Program-made: the position numbers and the translations under genes
The notes under the pieces: generated by a model
Told to the model about the DNA's origin: nothing
Databases searched by the model: none
Seen by the model: only the letters and a program-made list of their open reading frames with translations
From: a virus
Lineage: Duplodnaviria; Caudoviricetes
DNA length: 64,000 nucleotides
Strand: one strand, 5' to 3'
Virus record (IMG/VR): IMGVR_UViG_3300020048_000009
Span: 32,001-96,000 of that record
In this document: positions 69-57,457 of the stretch, one piece after another
Numbering within the stretch: position 1 is the stretch's first letter
Layout: each line of letters begins with the position of its first letter

Positions 69-1361
69 ATGAAAATTTACAAAATTGGCGGATGTGTTAG
101 AGATAAATTAATGAGTAGAGTACCACATGATATTGATTATTGTGTGGTTGGTTCTACTATTGATGAAATGTTATCATTAGGTTTTAAACAAGTCGGTAAA
201 GATTTTCCTGTTTTTTTACATCCTAAAACAGGCGATGAATACGCATTAGCTAGAACAGAAAGAAAAACAGGGAATAAACATACTGATTTTGCTTTTGATT
301 TTGGTAAAAATATTAATATTGAAGATGATTGTTTTCGTAGAGATTTTACTATGAATTCTATTGCTGAAGATATTACAAATTCTACTATTATTGATATGTT
401 CGGCGGACAAAATGATATTAATAATAAAATAGTTAGACATATTAATGCTCAATATTTTATACAAGATCCTTTACGGATTTTAAGGGCTTTACGTTTTTGT
501 GTAACATTAAATTTTAACTTAGCTCCTGAAACTAAAATTTTATTAAAAATTATGGTTAAAGATGGAATGTTAAAAGATTTAACACCTGAAAGAATATGGA
601 ATGAAATTGATAAAGCTTTGCAGTGTAAAAACTTTTATACTTTCATAACTCTATTAGATGAAATTGGTGGGTTACCTGATATTTTTCCAGAATTAGAACA
701 TTTAAAATATGTACCAGAGCGTGATGATTATCATGGTGAAAAAAATACATTTAATCATATTCTTTTAACATTAATACATTTAAACAATAAATTTAATAAT
801 ATCGGTGAAATTAAATATTTAAATTTTGGGCTTTTAGCTCATGATTTAGGTAAAATATTAACACCTATCGCAGACTGGCCATCACATCCAAGTCATGAAG
901 ATTCTGGTGTGAGTGTTATTGAAAAATTATGTACACGTTTAAAAGTTCCTAATGATTATAAGAAGTTTGCAATATTAGCTTGTAAATATCATATGAAAAT
1001 TTCTAAATATTTTGATATGAATATTAGTAAACGGTATAATTTTATTACAGATGTAACTAATAATTTTAGAGATAAAAGTAATTTGTCATACATTTTTTCT
1101 ATATATTTTTATGATAAGGTTGGTCGTTTAAATTTTAATTTTGATTATACAGATTTTGCGGACAAAATGGCAAATGCGTATGAAATGTTTGATGTTATTT
1201 CTAGGACAAGTGCTGATATGTTCCCAGAATTATTAAAATTTAAAGGATCACAGTTTGGAAAATTATACAGAGATAAACGTATTGAATTTTACAGAAAACA
1301 AATAAAAAAGTATAAGGATAATGACAATGCTTCTAACACGCAGGATATTCGAGACGAATAA
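69..1361 (+). CDS. cca: CCA-adding tRNA nucleotidyltransferase with HD domain
   Basis: GGCVRD..DIDY, ARTERK, RRDFTMN, DPLRILR motifs; H..HD-type C-terminal domain. Confidence 0.95.
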   Translation: MKIYKIGGCVRDKLMSRVPHDIDYCVVGSTIDEMLSLGFKQVGKDFPVFLHPKTGDEYALARTERKTGNKHTDFAFDFGKNINIEDDCFRRDFTMNSIAEDITNSTIIDMFGGQNDINNKIVRHINAQYFIQDPLRILRALRFCVTLNFNLAPETKILLKIMVKDGMLKDLTPERIWNEIDKALQCKNFYTFITLLDEIGGLPDIFPELEHLKYVPERDDYHGEKNTFNHILLTLIHLNNKFNNIGEIKYLNFGLLAHDLGKILTPIADWPSHPSHEDSGVSVIEKLCTRLKVPNDYKKFAILACKYHMKISKYFDMNISKRYNFITDVTNNFRDKSNLSYIFSIYFYDKVGRLNFNFDYTDFADKMANAYEMFDVISRTSADMFPELLKFKGSQFGKLYRDKRIEFYRKQIKKYKDNDNASNTQDIRDE

Positions 1362-5228: not shown

Positions 5229-7136
5229 ATGTCAACACAAAATCAAAATAATATCGAAAAACCGGATTTAACTAATGTTTATCCAGGGTATAGAAATATC
5301 TCTTACCATGTTACTAATGGTAAAGGTGAAATTGTATTGGATGGATGGGATAAAGATAAAGTTCCTAAAACTTTTTATTTTCCACATTTAAGCAAAGTTG
5401 TATATGAAACAAAAGAAAAAACAGATACAAAAACATTATTTGATACATACGCACAAACTAGATATTTTAATAATAGTTACGAGCGAAAAAAATGGTTAGC
5501 GTCTATTGATAAAAATATTAATATCATTGAGGCGTTTAAACCTGAACAAGAATTTTTAGTTGATAACTTTTACGATAAAGTTTATGATAATGATTTTAAC
5601 GTTTTAGATTTACGTACACATTTCATAGATATTGAAGTTGCAATAGAAACGGAATTCTGTAAACCTACAGAAGCCAAATATCCTATTAATATTATAACGG
5701 TATATGATACATACTTAAAGAAATATTATAGTTGGGCATTGGATATGTCCATCACTAATACTATTGCAAATAAAAATATAGAATTAAGAAAATTTAATTC
5801 TGAACAGATTATGTTGCGTGATTTTATTGAATGGTTTTCTGTTAATAGACCTGATATTATTTCTGGTTGGAATATTTATTTTTTCGATATGCCGTATTTA
5901 CTTAAAAGAGTTGAGAATGTTTTAGGTAAAACATATTGTGAAAAGTTTTCATCAATTAAGCGTTATTGGTTCGCAGAGAAAAAAGACAAATTCAATAGTG
6001 CATATGTTAATATTCCCGGTGTTTCACAATTAGACTTATTAATATTGTATAGAGATAAGTTTAAAGTTAATCCTTCATTGGATGGCGGCTATAACTTAGA
6101 CAATGTTGCATTTGAAGAATTAGGTGAAAATAAAATAAAATATGAAGGTTCAATGCGTAATTTTTATAAGAATAATTTTCAAAGATTTTGGGAATATAAT
6201 ATAAAAGACGTTGAACTTTGTGTTAAAATTGAAGCCAAAAGATCACTAATTCCTTGTGCTAGACGTATTACTACTCTTGGTTTATGTCAATACGAACAAA
6301 TTTATGGTTCTATTAATTATATTATAGGCTCGGTTTGTATTTATTCTAAAAATCATCATAATAAAATTTTTAGATCTTATACTGATTATGATAATATTGG
6401 TGAAGAGTTTGAGGGTGCATACGTATTCCCAACAATGGCAGCGTTTTATAAAAATGGATGTGCATGTATTGACGTAAACTCACTATATCCCAATACAATG
6501 ATAGCTTTAAATCTATCGCCAGAAACCAAAATTGGGCAACTAATAGATAATCTAAATGGTACTTTTAATATTGTATTAGATGATGGTACTATAAAAATTA
6601 TTACAGCAGAGGTAAGAGCTAAATTATTAGAAACCAAATGTATTTTAAGTAAGAACGATACTTTATTTTATAAGCATTCTGTTAAAAAAGGTATTCTATC
6701 TGGTTGGTGTAAATATTATTTTGATAGACGTAAACATTATCAAAAGTTAGCAAAAGCCGCGGGTAAAAAAATAGAAGAACTTGAAAATCAATTAGTTATT
6801 AAAAAGCAAGAAGGTTCAGACTATAGTGCTATTGATAAAGAATTAGCAGAACAAATTAAATATAAAATGATTTATCATACTACACAGTATGCTATTAAAA
6901 TCATGTTAAACAGTGCATATGGTATGACAGGTACTAAATTTAGTCCTATTTATGATATAAATTTAGCACAAAGTATTACTTTAAATGGACAATTTGTAAA
7001 TAAATCTGTTGCAACATATCTTAAAAAGAAGTTTAATGAAAAATATAAATGTTCTGAAGATTTTGAAGTTACAATTAGCGGTGATACTGACAGTGTAGCA
7101 GGTGATACAATTTTAAATATAAGAATAGGTAAATAA
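5229..7136 (+). CDS. DNA polymerase family B, N-terminal part (exonuclease, motifs A and B, start of motif C), ending in a split intein fragment
   Basis: DIEV, GWN..FDMPY, YNIKDV, DVNSLYP, KIMLNSAYG, GDTDS; no thumb domain. Confidence 0.95.
   Translation: MSTQNQNNIEKPDLTNVYPGYRNISYHVTNGKGEIVLDGWDKDKVPKTFYFPHLSKVVYETKEKTDTKTLFDTYAQTRYFNNSYERKKWLASIDKNINIIEAFKPEQEFLVDNFYDKVYDNDFNVLDLRTHFIDIEVAIETEFCKPTEAKYPINIITVYDTYLKKYYSWALDMSITNTIANKNIELRKFNSEQIMLRDFIEWFSVNRPDIISGWNIYFFDMPYLLKRVENVLGKTYCEKFSSIKRYWFAEKKDKFNSAYVNIPGVSQLDLLILYRDKFKVNPSLDGGYNLDNVAFEELGENKIKYEGSMRNFYKNNFQRFWEYNIKDVELCVKIEAKRSLIPCARRITTLGLCQYEQIYGSINYIIGSVCIYSKNHHNKIFRSYTDYDNIGEEFEGAYVFPTMAAFYKNGCACIDVNSLYPNTMIALNLSPETKIGQLIDNLNGTFNIVLDDGTIKIITAEVRAKLLETKCILSKNDTLFYKHSVKKGILSGWCKYYFDRRKHYQKLAKAAGKKIEELENQLVIKKQEGSDYSAIDKELAEQIKYKMIYHTTQYAIKIMLNSAYGMTGTKFSPIYDINLAQSITLNGQFVNKSVATYLKKKFNEKYKCSEDFEVTISGDTDSVAGDTILNIRIGK
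7092..7133 (+). mobile_element. N-fragment (14 aa) of an atypically split, Ser1 intein at the PolB pol-c site
   Basis: GDTD|SVAGDTILNIRIGK-stop matches intein block A. Confidence 0.85.
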
Positions 7137-9401: not shown

Positions 9402-10225
9402 AATCTACTACCTGGTAAATATTCTAATTTCTTTTCTACACTAAAGCTTGTATCAAAATATTTCATAAGTGTATTATATATAGAATTTAAATCCGCATGT
9501 GGGAATACCATTTTATATTTGTTGGCATATTCTATAAATTTATTAATAATTGATGATGCTTGTTCTTTTGTAATATCGGAATGAATATTAAAAAATAAGC
9601 TATTAATTATTTTTACTAGTTTATTTCTAGTGACTATAAAATTATTATCTATTCCATAGTCTAATAATAATAGATATGCGTTATATCCATTAATAGTAAA
9701 GTCACTGATAAGAGCACTTATAAAATCTTCTGTATTAACTGGTTTATATTTTAGGTTTTTATATTTTGCATCTTCGTCTAAATTTTTACAAGCGTTATAA
9801 TTTCCTGTAATATTTACTATACAGGGAATATTCATTTTATTTTTTACTCTGTCTGGAATTATTATTAAAGTAATTATTCCATTATAATTTACGTCTACTC
9901 TATCAGGTAATACCTTTTTACAATCTAACATATTTTGATTATAATTTTTCCAATAGTTTGATATTTCGCTTTGTATACTTTTAGCTTCTTCAGGACGTAA
10001 TCTTGTATTTAAATTAATATCACATTTCCATGTTCCATCTGAATTATTACGGGACCATTTTAAAATATAATTTTTACCGTTAAAGTCCATACTGTTTATA
10101 AAACCAAAAGTTTCTATTGCTCCTGTATATGCTTCTAATATTTTATCATCAGGATTAAACGCTGAAACTTTTGGTTTAATATAATTATCTATTGGAAAAT
10201 CTGGACTATATGTTAGCCATTTCAT
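9398..10225 (-). CDS. hypothetical protein (late promoter)
   Basis: 275 aa ORF; GATAAATA upstream on minus strand. Confidence 0.65.
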   Translation of the reverse strand: MKWLTYSPDFPIDNYIKPKVSAFNPDDKILEAYTGAIETFGFINSMDFNGKNYILKWSRNNSDGTWKCDINLNTRLRPEEAKSIQSEISNYWKNYNQNMLDCKKVLPDRVDVNYNGIITLIIIPDRVKNKMNIPCIVNITGNYNACKNLDEDAKYKNLKYKPVNTEDFISALISDFTINGYNAYLLLLDYGIDNNFIVTRNKLVKIINSLFFNIHSDITKEQASSIINKFIEYANKYKMVFPHADLNSIYNTLMKYFDTSFSVEKKLEYLPGSRF

Positions 10226-50809: not shown

Positions 50810-50856
50810 GGTGTATATTGTAGCGAGTATCAAGTATAATTAAAGTATAAATTTTG

Positions 50857-50965
50857 ATTCCATCAGGGGAATGAAAAGTGGTTTAAGCCTGATGCGTCTC
50901 GACGGTTTGCTGAATATTGTTAGGGTCCTTTCTTCCTAATAATGTTTATACTGTCGAGGGTACCG
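50857..50965 (+). ncRNA. pistol ribozyme
   Basis: P1 ATTCC/GGAAT, loop ATCAGG pairs CCTGAT, A-rich linker, P2 TGGT/ACCG, UUAAG, GCGU, P3 CTCGACGGT/ACTGTCGAG, GG^U. Confidence 0.85.
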
Positions 50966-51205
50966 ATAGGTTACGGAAAATTATTTTCAAAAATATTTCA
51001 TTTTTATTTTTGGAAATGATAAATAAAATAAAATTAAGGATAAAGCAAATGTTTACGAACACATATAGAGGCAATGATAAAGGCAATACAGAACTATGTA
51101 TTACTAATGCCGGGGCTTTATCCAATCTTACAGCAGTAAATTTCCCAGAACGAATAAAGCCCGTAACCCAAGTTTAATTTAAACGGTAAAATGTTTTGGG
51201 TTACT

Positions 51206-51284
51206 ACTAGGAGAGGTTAAGCCTAGTGCGTTCTATAAAATTTACTGTGTCTAATGCTAAACACGAAATTTTGTAGAGGTCCTC
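51206..51284 (+). ncRNA. pistol-like ribozyme lacking canonical P1
   Basis: ACTAGG/CCTAGT, P2 GAGG/CCTC, UUAAG, GCGU, 12-bp P3, GG^U. Confidence 0.65.
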
Positions 51285-51393
51285 AAAAGAAATGAGCAAT
51301 TATTTCTTTAGATTTGATCTGTGACAATTGAATAGAAAACTTTAAATTATTTTTTGGTGGTTTTTATAACTCAAAAAACTACCCAACTTTTAT

Positions 51394-51470
51394 GAGCTCG
51401 TAGAGGAAATGGTTAACTCATGTGGTTTTCATCCACAAGATTGCCGGTTCGAATCCGGTCGGGCTTACCA
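51394..51470 (+). tRNA. tRNA-Glu(TTC)
   Basis: cloverleaf, loop TTTTCAT, CCA. Confidence 0.9.
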
Positions 51471-51561
51471 TATAAGCATGACGACTAGACTAGCAATGCT
51501 TTCAGCTTATAGCTAAACTAGTGACACGGCGGAGAGCACGTCGGACAATTTTATAATTTAT

Positions 51562-51772: not shown

Positions 51773-51876
51773 ATTTGGCTGCATTCCGGATGCAGTCGGA
51801 TCAATTCACCTGATGTACTAGAGCGAGTCAGGAATTATGAAACAGTAAAATTCTGTATCGGTCTGCCAATTTATGT

Positions 51877-52220: not shown

Positions 52221-52946
52221 ATGAATACAGTAATTTGTCCAATATGTGGAAAAGAATACAAACAATTAATAGCACAACATATTTTTAAACACGGTTTGAC
52301 TATTGAAGAATTTAAACTTAAATTTCCAGATTTTTATTTAGGTAGTCCGGGTATTGAAAGTACTAGAAAAGAAAAAATGGTACTTCAATATGAAAAAGAT
52401 AATATACGATGTAAACATTGTAATAAATTAATAACATCACCAAATAGAAAACATAGAATCTTTTGTAGTACTTTATGTAAAGCTACTTATTATTCTTTTA
52501 ACAAAGAGCTTGTTCAAACAAAAGGAAAACATTTTAAAAAAATCTGTTGTGCATGTAATAAAGAATATAAAGCCTTTAGAGATAATTCTAAATTTTGTTC
52601 TAATAAATGTCAACAAGAATATATTAATGTTCAAAAAATTAAAGAATGGAAAGACGCCACAGAACAGGGAAAACCTTTTCCCTATAGAAAATGGATAAGA
52701 CATTATCTTTTTAAAAAATATGATAACAAATGCTGTAAATGTGGGTGGAGTAAGATTAATCCTTTTACAGGAAATGTTCCTTTAGAACTTGAACATATTG
52801 ATGGTAATTCAAATAACAATAAAGAAGAAAATTTAGAATTGTTATGTCCCTGTTGTCATGCCTTAACTTCCACATATAAGGGTGCAAATAGAGGTAATGG
52901 AAGATTCTCTAGAAGACAAAGATACCAAGAAGGTAAATCTTATTAA
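52221..52946 (+). CDS. HNH homing endonuclease with Cys-rich N-terminus
   Basis: CCKCGW...LELEHIDGN..NN..ENL.LLCPCCH. Confidence 0.9.
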   Translation: MNTVICPICGKEYKQLIAQHIFKHGLTIEEFKLKFPDFYLGSPGIESTRKEKMVLQYEKDNIRCKHCNKLITSPNRKHRIFCSTLCKATYYSFNKELVQTKGKHFKKICCACNKEYKAFRDNSKFCSNKCQQEYINVQKIKEWKDATEQGKPFPYRKWIRHYLFKKYDNKCCKCGWSKINPFTGNVPLELEHIDGNSNNNKEENLELLCPCCHALTSTYKGANRGNGRFSRRQRYQEGKSY

Positions 52947-53535: not shown

Positions 53536-53646
53536 GTTTTGTTTCATTAAAGCATATAATATCAGTGTATAAAAGCCAATGAATATACTACTATATTAAT
53601 ATCAATTACGCAATTGATACTGTTCTTTGAATAACAATTTTTAAAT

Positions 53647-55433: not shown

Positions 55434-55558
55434 GGGAACAGATGGTTAGCGCCATTTGGCATATTTATTCATGTAGTATGCCTAACCCATTTATATTTTT
55501 GATAAATAAAATAGAGGTTACGCTAAGAACCTCTTTAAAATAAAGGTAAAATAATATG
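55434..55558 (+). ncRNA. kissing-loop endonuclease-leader cassette copy B
   Basis: H1 loop TTAGCG (55446-51) complementary to H3 loop CGCTAA (55521-26). Confidence 0.75.
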
Positions 55559-56236
55559 ATTAATAAATTAGATGAATCATGGAAGCAAGTAAACGGTTTA
55601 TATAAATGTCCAATATGTAGTAAAGAGTATTCTAAAAAAGGAATTTGTTCGCATATCTTTAGATCACATACAAAAGACGGTAAATATAATTCTTTTAAAG
55701 ATAATAACAGATTATATACTTCATCGTGGAATAAAGGTTTAATAAAAGAAACAGATCTTAGAATCAAGAAATCTGGTGAGAAACTTAAAGAAAGTCTTAA
55801 CTCTGGTAAAGTAATACCACCACAAACAGGAAAACCTATTGCTCCTGAAATAAAAGCTAAAATATCCAATACGATGAAGATTGCTCATAAAGAAGGAAGA
55901 GCGTGGAATATTGGAAAGTCTAGATGGAATAACAAAGCTTCATATCCAGAAGAATTCTTTATGAAGGTTATTGAAAATGAATTTGAGGATAAGAATTATA
56001 TAAGAGAATTTAATGTTGGTATTTATTCTATAGATTTTGCATGGACCGATAAAAAGTTAGCTATAGAAATAGACGGACAACAGCATAAACGATTTGAAGA
56101 ATATAAACAGAGAGATCTTCGGAAAGATGAATGTTTATTAGAGAATGGATGGAAAGTTCTAAGAATTTTATGGATTGATATGTATAAGGATCCACACAAG
56201 TGGATTAAAATTGCTAAAGATTTTATACATAATTAA
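55556..56236 (+). CDS. free-standing endonuclease (zinc finger, NUMOD3, DUF559-like)
   Basis: CPIC..H...H; K.KISNTMK; YSIDFAW..KLAIEIDG.QH...D..L..NGWKVLRI. Confidence 0.88.
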   Translation: MINKLDESWKQVNGLYKCPICSKEYSKKGICSHIFRSHTKDGKYNSFKDNNRLYTSSWNKGLIKETDLRIKKSGEKLKESLNSGKVIPPQTGKPIAPEIKAKISNTMKIAHKEGRAWNIGKSRWNNKASYPEEFFMKVIENEFEDKNYIREFNVGIYSIDFAWTDKKLAIEIDGQQHKRFEEYKQRDLRKDECLLENGWKVLRILWIDMYKDPHKWIKIAKDFIHN

Positions 56237-56789: not shown

Positions 56790-56923
56790 GGACAGATGGT
56801 TAGCGCCATTTGGATGTTTTTCATATGACACGCCTAACTTATTTAATTATTTTTTCATATTTTTTGATAAATAAAATAGAGGTTACGCTAAGAACCTCTT
56901 AAAAATAAAGGTAAAATAATATG
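56790..56923 (+). ncRNA. kissing-loop endonuclease-leader cassette copy C
   Basis: TTAGCG (56800-05) / CGCTAA (56886-91). Confidence 0.75.
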
Positions 56924-57457
56924 AGTAAAAAATTAATTGATCGCATCGGTGCTGATAAAATCATTGAAGTCTGCAAATCTGCAAAAACATTTAAAGAAGC
57001 ATGTGAAAAACTTAACTGTGGTTATAGATATTTAATGACAGCAGCCGTTGAATTAAATGTTTTCGATGAGTTAAAGTCTAGATCTAAAGAATTTGCACAT
57101 AAATTTAAAAAGGCTGATGGTTCAAGATTATGGTTGATTAAAACTAATACGGGACAAGGCTTTACATCATACAGAACTGATACTAAAATTTGGTGTGAAG
57201 AACTTTTTAAAGGAAATCATACATCAACCGCTGTTAGAATTAAAACACATTTAATTAATGCTGGGTATAAAGAAGATCATTGTGAATGCTGTGGTATTAA
57301 TGAATGGAACAATAAGCCAATAAGTTTACAATTACATCATATAGATGGAAATTCTAGAAACAATCAGTTAGATAATTTAAAAATTCTTTGTCCTAATTGT
57401 CACGTTCAAACAGATAATTATGGTTCTAAGAATGCTCGAAATAAAGAGCGCGAGTAA
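56921..57457 (+). CDS. HNH endonuclease with N-terminal HTH-like region
   Basis: CECCGI.EWN.KPI.LQLHHIDGN..NN.LDNL.ILCPNCH. Confidence 0.92.
   Translation: MSKKLIDRIGADKIIEVCKSAKTFKEACEKLNCGYRYLMTAAVELNVFDELKSRSKEFAHKFKKADGSRLWLIKTNTGQGFTSYRTDTKIWCEELFKGNHTSTAVRIKTHLINAGYKEDHCECCGINEWNNKPISLQLHHIDGNSRNNQLDNLKILCPNCHVQTDNYGSKNARNKERE

What the first reader, a model, noticed from the sequence alone, without database searches (positions are those of the whole stretch)
50857..50965. Canonical pistol ribozyme at the head of the tRNA operon
All pistol elements are present: P1, a loop ATCAGG pairing with CCTGAT, an A-rich linker, P2, UUAAG, GCGU, P3 and the G-G^U site (predicted cut at 50960/50961). 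It starts about 16 nt after the TATAAT of a GTGTAT-N18-TATAAT promoter. tRNA-associated self-cleavage in phages is established for HDV-like theta ribozymes; a pistol at a tRNA operon leader is less familiar.
Basis: partly seen in the sequence, partly recalled or inferred. Interest (0 to 1): 0.65.

Follow-up and report, generated by a model that had tools for sequence, protein, structure and literature searches.

The report
Phage pistol ribozyme upstream of tRNAs
A large freshwater phage starts one of its RNAs with an ordinary self-cutting RNA (a pistol ribozyme); it cuts 433 bases before the first tRNA, so it probably does not make tRNA ends but marks the front of a conserved 319-base RNA that a second ribozyme-like element would cut at the back.

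Summary
50857-50965 has every pistol element; a structural descriptor finds it once in the 211-kb phage record and never in 60 random genomes. Rfam misses it (11 bits), most likely because P3 carries a ~50-nt hairpin extension. Orthologs in two related phage lineages keep the core almost unchanged, show three compensatory changes in P3 with no broken pair, and replace the extension. The promoter belongs to a genome-wide phage motif.

The tRNA reading is only partly right. The cut lies 433 nt before tRNA-Glu, unlike theta ribozymes (within 5 nt of a tRNA 3' end). In between lie a second promoter motif, a 42-codon ORF inside conserved RNA structure, and a second, P1-less pistol-like element (cut 51279/80), the only other pistol core in the record. 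Best reading: the pistol sets a 5'-OH front end on a 319-nt ribozyme-bracketed cassette, like known ribozyme-flanked phage genes. The cassette has two near-equal folds, one blocking the second ribozyme. Circularisation by the phage RtcB is not supported. Pistols near tRNAs recur in four unrelated lineages, without significant enrichment. The scan earlier noted leader pistols and tRNA-cluster ribozymes in other phages. New member of a known class; cleavage untested.

The parts
50811..50840 (+). Phage promoter motif (-35 at 50811-16, 18-nt spacer, -10 at 50835-40); probably early class; inferred start about 50846-48
   Evidence: 56 genome-wide matches, 39 intergenic although only about 10% of the genome is intergenic; both hexamers, their spacing and the 16-nt distance to P1 are kept in L150 and L156 while the spacer diverges
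50857..50965 (+). Canonical pistol ribozyme (P1, pseudoknot, AAA linker, P2, UUAAG, GCG, P3); predicted cut G50960/U50961
   Evidence: PMC4604425 and PMC6154101 for the defining features
50905..50951 (+). Variable hairpin extension of P3; the likely reason Rfam misses the ribozyme
   Evidence: folds as a long hairpin in all three lineages, with different sequence and length (P3 arm 63, 51, 75 nt); 26/49 and 31/49 positions differ
50980..51025 (+). AT-rich hairpin whose 3' arm holds a second promoter motif (GATAAATA, 51018-25), resembling the T4 late promoter; it would start transcripts downstream of the pistol cut
   Evidence: motif with AAA extension: 10 of 16 genome matches intergenic; conserved in relatives; late class is inferred from T4 (own knowledge)
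51036..51177 (+). SD-like site (51036-40) and 42-codon ORF (51049-51177) embedded in conserved RNA structure; no known family
   Evidence: homologs of 45 and 40 aa with in-frame indels and the stop within one codon; no codon-position bias, mostly non-synonymous changes; no Pfam family
51038..51247 (+). Mutually exclusive helices: A (51038-46 with 51115-23, hides the SD), B (51113-21 with 51154-62), C (51134-52 with 51229-47, pairs with the catalytic GCG and P3 strand of the second element)
   Evidence: A+C and B+intact second pistol differ by 1.1-3.5 kcal/mol in three lineages; helix C duplex -16.2 kcal/mol, matched by 0 of 1990 random genome windows; A and B never vary, C has one G-U change
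51206..51284 (+). Second, pistol-like element lacking P1 and the AAA linker; predicted cut G51279/U51280
   Evidence: only other pistol core in the record; 0/38 and 1/38 differences in relatives; same layout after a stop codon in an unrelated phage, L149
51357..51385 (+). 9-bp minihelix ending in CCA, followed by a tRNA-type U-rich spacer (also scored as terminator-like)
   Evidence: similar elements in L150 and L156
51394..61081 (+). Array of 24 tRNA genes, first tRNA-Glu, with interspersed nuclease ORFs and further promoter motifs

Best explanation
It is an active canonical pistol ribozyme at the very start of a phage transcript. Shown: the anatomy, the promoter motif and the conservation. 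Inferred from the class: it cuts between G50960 and U50961 by 2'-O attack with Mg2+, using G50894 (G40 equivalent) as base, leaving a 2',3'-cyclic phosphate on a ~113-nt 5' piece and a 5'-OH on the rest. Inferred from context: its job is to define the front end of a conserved cassette (hairpin, SD, 42-codon ORF, structured RNA) whose back end is set by the P1-less pistol-like element at 51279/80, as ribozymes flank single small genes in other phage operons. The 5'-OH end should be a poorer substrate for 5'-monophosphate-stimulated RNases. tRNA maturation is left to ordinary enzymes; if any ribozyme frees the tRNA precursor it is the second one, 114 nt from tRNA-Glu. Probability that it is a cleaving pistol about 0.9; that its role is this cassette boundary about 0.6.
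For: Unique descriptor hit, 0 in 60 random genomes. Core differs at 8/59 and 2/59 positions in two relatives versus 52/83 and 42/83 in the flanks, Fisher p about 1e-9. 23 pairs: 3 double-sided changes, none broken. Linker length 15 nt is within the 15-18 nt of 69 phage pistol cores. P3 loop is dispensable in tested pistols (PMC4604425). Promoter, pistol, cassette and first tRNA-Glu stay together while the upstream gene and the tRNA set change. The two pistol cores are the only ones in the record and no other ribozyme reaches an Rfam cut-off. Ribozymes flanking single phage genes: PMC3088659. Lower RNase E activity on 5'-OH than on 5'-P RNA: PMC10939160.
Against: No cleavage assay or RNA data. 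Rfam score is under the cut-off. Only three lineages, all close relatives, and P1 and the pseudoknot never vary among them. The ORF shows no protein-level selection, so the cassette differs from a simple ribozyme-flanked gene. The second element lacks P1, which mutational work found important (PMC4604425), so it may not cut. Transcripts from the internal promoter motif would bypass this pistol.
Confidence: 0.6

Rival explanations
1. The pistol serves tRNA production: it trims the leader of the polycistronic tRNA precursor, a 5'-side counterpart of theta ribozymes.
For: It heads the transcript that runs into the tRNA array in all three lineages. In four unrelated phage records the single Rfam-positive pistol is the one within about 250 nt of a tRNA.
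Against: Cut is 433 nt from tRNA-Glu with a second cut site in between; a 5'-OH cannot be a mature tRNA 5' end (own knowledge: RNase P leaves 5'-P). More promoters lie inside the array. tRNA proximity 6/70 versus 1/50 control loci, p=0.13. Theta sites are within 5 nt of the tRNA.
Confidence: 0.15
2. The two ribozymes excise a 319-nt RNA that is then circularised by the phage RtcB ligase.
For: The two cuts would give exactly a 5'-OH and a 2',3'-cyclic phosphate; the record encodes RtcB; fragment length is similar in relatives (319, 324, 313 nt).
Against: No helix joins the two ends; the 15 nt after the first cut are among the least conserved (11/15 differ in L150); circular folds are 4-6 kcal/mol less stable than linear ones. 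RtcB is equally explained by tRNA repair in a phage with 25 tRNAs and a CCA-adding enzyme (own knowledge). Circles were sought and not found for clustered phage hammerheads (PMC3088659).
Confidence: 0.1
3. The useful product is the upstream ~113-nt piece (pistol body plus variable hairpin), acting as a small RNA, or the pistol is a neutral passenger kept only by descent.
For: The 5' piece is fully folded and carries a long hairpin in all lineages.
Against: The hairpin sequence is not conserved and its loops pair only weakly with the SD (-2 to -5 kcal/mol). Strong selective conservation of the catalytic core argues against a passenger.
Confidence: 0.1
4. It is a pseudoknot-type hammerhead, or a non-catalytic pistol look-alike.
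For: PK hammerheads share the pistol's topology (PMC11300833); the Rfam pistol score is low.
Against: The loop between P2 and the pseudoknot is the short pistol loop, not the 7-nt hammerhead loop; no hammerhead core found here; all pistol catalytic positions are present.
Confidence: 0.05

Closest known systems
Pistol ribozyme (Rfam RF02679; Harris et al. 2015, PMC4604425; env25 structure reviewed in PMC6154101)
   Same: Three stems plus 6-bp pseudoknot, AAA linker, A32/G33/G40/C41/G42 equivalents, 2-nt G-U junction, phage context
   Different: P3 arm of 63 nt against a typical 14-34 nt (a few reach 74-79), so it falls below the Rfam cut-off; sits 16 nt behind a promoter at a transcript start
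Theta (minimal HDV-like) ribozymes of gut phages (PMC10879173)
   Same: Self-cleaving RNA encoded near phage tRNA genes
   Different: Other ribozyme class; theta cuts at the tRNA 3' end (within 5 nt), this cuts 433 nt upstream of the first tRNA; this phage shows no sign of recoding (TAG and TGA end long ORFs) although it has one CUA tRNA
Clustered hammerheads flanking single genes in prophages (Perreault et al. 2011, PMC3088659)
   Same: Two ribozymes bracket one small ORF within a longer transcript; function untested
   Different: Pistol class; only one such cassette in the record; the bracketed segment is conserved as RNA structure and not as protein, and contains a strand complementary to the second ribozyme
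Pseudoknot-type hammerhead (PMC11300833)
   Same: Same helix connectivity
   Different: Needs the longer hammerhead core loop, absent here

Membership tests
Pistol ribozyme (RF02679) | P1 hairpin whose 6-nt loop pairs with the P2-P3 junction (pseudoknot) | tested here: met
   5-bp P1, 6/6 Watson-Crick pseudoknot; invariant among the orthologs, so no covariation from them
Pistol ribozyme (RF02679) | AAA linker between P1 and P2, usual length | tested here: met
   AAA at 50874-77, kept in relatives; loop-to-UUAAG distance 15 nt, range 15-18 in 69 cores
Pistol ribozyme (RF02679) | Conserved catalytic core: purine 32, G33, G40, C41, G42 | tested here: met
   A50886, G50887, G50894, C50895, G50896; invariant in three lineages
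Pistol ribozyme (RF02679) | P2 and P3 joined on the 3' side by a strictly 2-nt junction, usually G-U | tested here: met
   G50960-U50961; P3 with 3 compensatory changes, P2 with a U-G/U-A change
Pistol ribozyme (RF02679) | Score above the Rfam gathering threshold (34.5 bits) | tested here: inconclusive
   11.1 bits with the match ending at 50930, inside the P3 extension; the ortholog L137 and another long-P3 pistol, L032, also fail while 8 shorter ones pass. A P3-trimmed sequence could not be submitted. This is an annotation cut-off and not a structural feature.
Pistol ribozyme (RF02679) | Mg2+-dependent self-cleavage giving 2',3'-cyclic phosphate and 5'-OH | not testable with these tools
   Needs an in vitro assay
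Theta ribozyme (tRNA-processing) | Minimal HDV-like fold | tested here: not met
   No HDV-type Rfam match; anatomy is pistol
Theta ribozyme (tRNA-processing) | Cleavage site within 5 nt of a tRNA 3' end | tested here: not met
   433 nt upstream of tRNA-Glu
Pseudoknot-type hammerhead | Hammerhead core loop and matching GAAA strand | tested here: not met

The most novel reading that the evidence does not exclude
The pistol is the fixed front cutter of a phage RNA switch: with the P1-less pistol it releases a conserved 319-nt structured RNA in which a short ORF and three mutually exclusive helices couple translation (or a ligand) to the activity of the second ribozyme, and so to release of the tRNA precursor. 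That would be a natural, regulated pistol ribozyme; RtcB circularisation is a less likely add-on.
Probability: 0.2. Interest if true: 0.78.

Novelty: new member of a known kind. Interest (0 to 1): 0.42.

Why it matters
The ribozyme itself is one more phage pistol, useful as an example that long P3 extensions hide members from Rfam. The setting matters more. I found no paper that gives a tested biological role for a natural pistol, and here the only two pistol cores of a 211-kb record bracket one conserved cassette in front of the tRNA array. That gives a compact test system (about 480 nt) for what phage ribozymes do: cut both ends, stabilise a 5'-OH RNA, or gate tRNA precursor release through a fold switch.

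Tried and rejected
Rfam cmscan at gathering and E<=10 on the site: no pistol hit. No similar DNA beyond tRNAs among annotated phages. No orthologs in IMG/VR by pattern or neighbouring protein; relatives cannot be drawn for a virus record. Sequencing runs: no RNA holder listed, so expression is untested; only DNA contigs were laid. The 86-aa frame from 50917 was rejected as a gene: relatives shift frame upstream of the ATG at 51049. tmRNA: none by ARAGORN. Genome-wide hammerhead descriptor: only 10 loose core matches, none near this site and none reaching an Rfam cut-off. A sigma-70-like site at 51321-51348 is conserved in relatives but the motif is not enriched between genes (3 of 21), so it is not counted as a promoter. 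A 5'-3' helix closing the whole leader is lost in L150. P3-loop pairing with the SD is weak. No paper combines self-cleaving ribozyme, tRNA cluster and phage, and none describes a P1-less pistol in the searched library.

Full report
Observation. A descriptor requiring P1, the 6-bp pseudoknot, AAA, P2, the UUAAG and GCG core, P3 and the G-U junction finds exactly this site on both strands of the 211,678-nt virus record, and nothing in 60 Markov-simulated genomes. Rfam lists no pistol at its cut-off. The only RF02679 hit in the record at E<=10 is this site, 11.1 bits, ending inside P3. The likely cause is a hairpin extension that makes the P3 arm 63 nt; the ortholog L137 and another long-P3 pistol also fail Rfam while eight shorter ones pass. 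A model from 59 unrelated phage pistols gives 32.9 bits, lower than typical members, and the test is partly circular. The P3 loop is removed in active two-strand pistol constructs (PMC4604425), so the extension should not block catalysis.

Genome. The record is a freshwater phage, 30% G+C, 84% complete, with T4-like replication genes, GroEL, a CCA-adding enzyme and RtcB and 25 tRNA genes, 24 of them in one array starting at 51394.

Conservation. Two related lineages were recovered: L137/L150 and L156/L157. The pistol core differs at 8/59 and 2/59 positions, the neighbouring promoter spacer, P3 extension and post-cut spacer at 52/83 and 42/83 (p about 1e-9). Of 23 pairs none is broken and three P3 pairs change on both sides; P1 and the pseudoknot are invariant and so give no covariation. 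A further relative lacks the upstream 113-aa gene but keeps the promoter, pistol and leader, and tRNA content varies between relatives. The unit is therefore kept as a module in front of tRNA-Glu.

Promoter. The GTGTAT-N17-19-TANNNT motif has 56 matches in the record, 39 between genes, and both hexamers keep their spacing and their 16-nt distance to P1 in relatives. The pistol thus starts about 10 nt after the inferred transcript start. The same motif recurs inside the tRNA array at 53565, 53876, 54937, 58202 and 60176, so this transcript is not the only tRNA source.

What lies downstream. The cut is 433 nt before tRNA-Glu. The interval folds better than all shuffles (z -4.8) and contains a hairpin with a second promoter motif (51018-25), an SD-like site, a 42-codon ORF and a second pistol-like element at 51206-51284 with P2, UUAAG, pseudoknot strands, GCG, P3 and G-U but no P1 or AAA linker. 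I noticed this element before consulting earlier notes; the scan had already recorded it (e1-5319485). It is the only other pistol core in the record, is nearly invariant in relatives, and has the same layout behind a stop codon in an unrelated phage. The ORF keeps start, frame and stop through in-frame indels but shows no codon-position bias and mostly non-synonymous changes, so the constraint is on RNA. Folding gives two global states within 1.1-3.5 kcal/mol in all three lineages. In one, helix A hides the SD and helix C pairs 51134-52 with the GCG and P3 strand of the second element. In the other, helix B forms and the second element is intact. The helix C duplex is better than in any of 1990 random windows. 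Helices A and B never vary and C has one G-U change, so they rest on conservation and not on covariation; three compensatory changes occur in the hairpins common to both states. After both cuts the predicted fold shifts to A plus C. These are energy-model results without pseudoknots, from three close lineages.

Mechanism. By class, the pistol cuts G50960/U50961 with Mg2+, giving a cyclic phosphate upstream and a 5'-OH downstream (PMC4604425; core residues in PMC6154101). The most economical role is to set the front end of the 319-nt cassette, with the second element setting the back end, as clustered hammerheads flank single phage genes (PMC3088659). A 5'-OH end is a poorer RNase E substrate than a 5'-monophosphate (PMC10939160), so stabilisation is plausible but inferred. 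Direct tRNA processing is unlikely: theta ribozymes cut within 5 nt of a tRNA 3' end (PMC10879173).

How unusual is the tRNA context? Among 70 IMG/VR loci with a pistol, six (four lineages: L012/L070, L025/L078, L066, L130) lie within 300 nt of a same-strand tRNA, one inside a 10-tRNA cluster. In the four records searched, that pistol is the only Rfam-positive one. I found no paper on pistols at tRNA clusters, but pistols near phage genes are the class's original setting.

Verdict. A real pistol and a new member of a known class, with a long P3. The interest lies in the two-ribozyme cassette and its possible fold switch, which remain untested. Interest 0.42.

Noticed in passing
window 51134-51152 with 51229-51247: A conserved strand inside the small ORF is complementary (10+6 bp) to the catalytic GCG and P3 5' strand of the P1-less pistol; with helices A and B it forms a possible two-state switch.
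   Followed up: partly
window 51357-51385; L150 2318-2341; L156 970-1000: Short minihelices ending in CCA followed by tRNA-type U-rich spacers sit just before tRNA-Glu; relatives have two such hairpins.
   Followed up: partly
L149 10324-10375: P1-less pistol-like element directly after the stop codon of a small gene in an unrelated high-GC phage.
   Followed up: partly
L130 about 7008-7070 (minus); L066 395-460; L012 1492-1571; L070 523-599; L025 2213-2283: Canonical Rfam-positive pistols 150-195 nt upstream of a tRNA, or starting about 160 nt after the second and about 100 nt after the last of three tRNAs (L066), in unrelated phages.
   Followed up: partly
L089 about 9741-9815 (minus): Diverged pistol-like sequence inside a 31-tRNA cluster; 22 bits with my model, no Rfam match.
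   Followed up: no
L032 4194-4313; L035, L054, L087: Other phage pistols with long P3 extensions (arm 45-74 nt); such members can fall below the Rfam cut-off.
   Followed up: partly
window 51471-51561 and 51778-51870: Structured-looking non-tRNA segments between tRNA genes, the second ending in CCA; no Rfam match at the cut-off.
   Followed up: no
window 52221-52946, 55556-56236, 56921-57457: HNH and DUF559-type nuclease ORFs inserted in the tRNA array; two share a leader with the GATAAATA motif.
   Followed up: no
genome 140246-140322 (outside the window): A lone tRNA with CUA anticodon, although TAG ends several long ORFs and coding density gives no sign of recoding.
   Followed up: no
genome 156331-157521; window 69-1361: Phage-encoded RtcB ligase and CCA-adding enzyme.
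   Followed up: partly
window 51321-51348: Conserved sigma-70-like hexamer pair just before the minihelix; not enriched between genes elsewhere in the record.
   Followed up: partly
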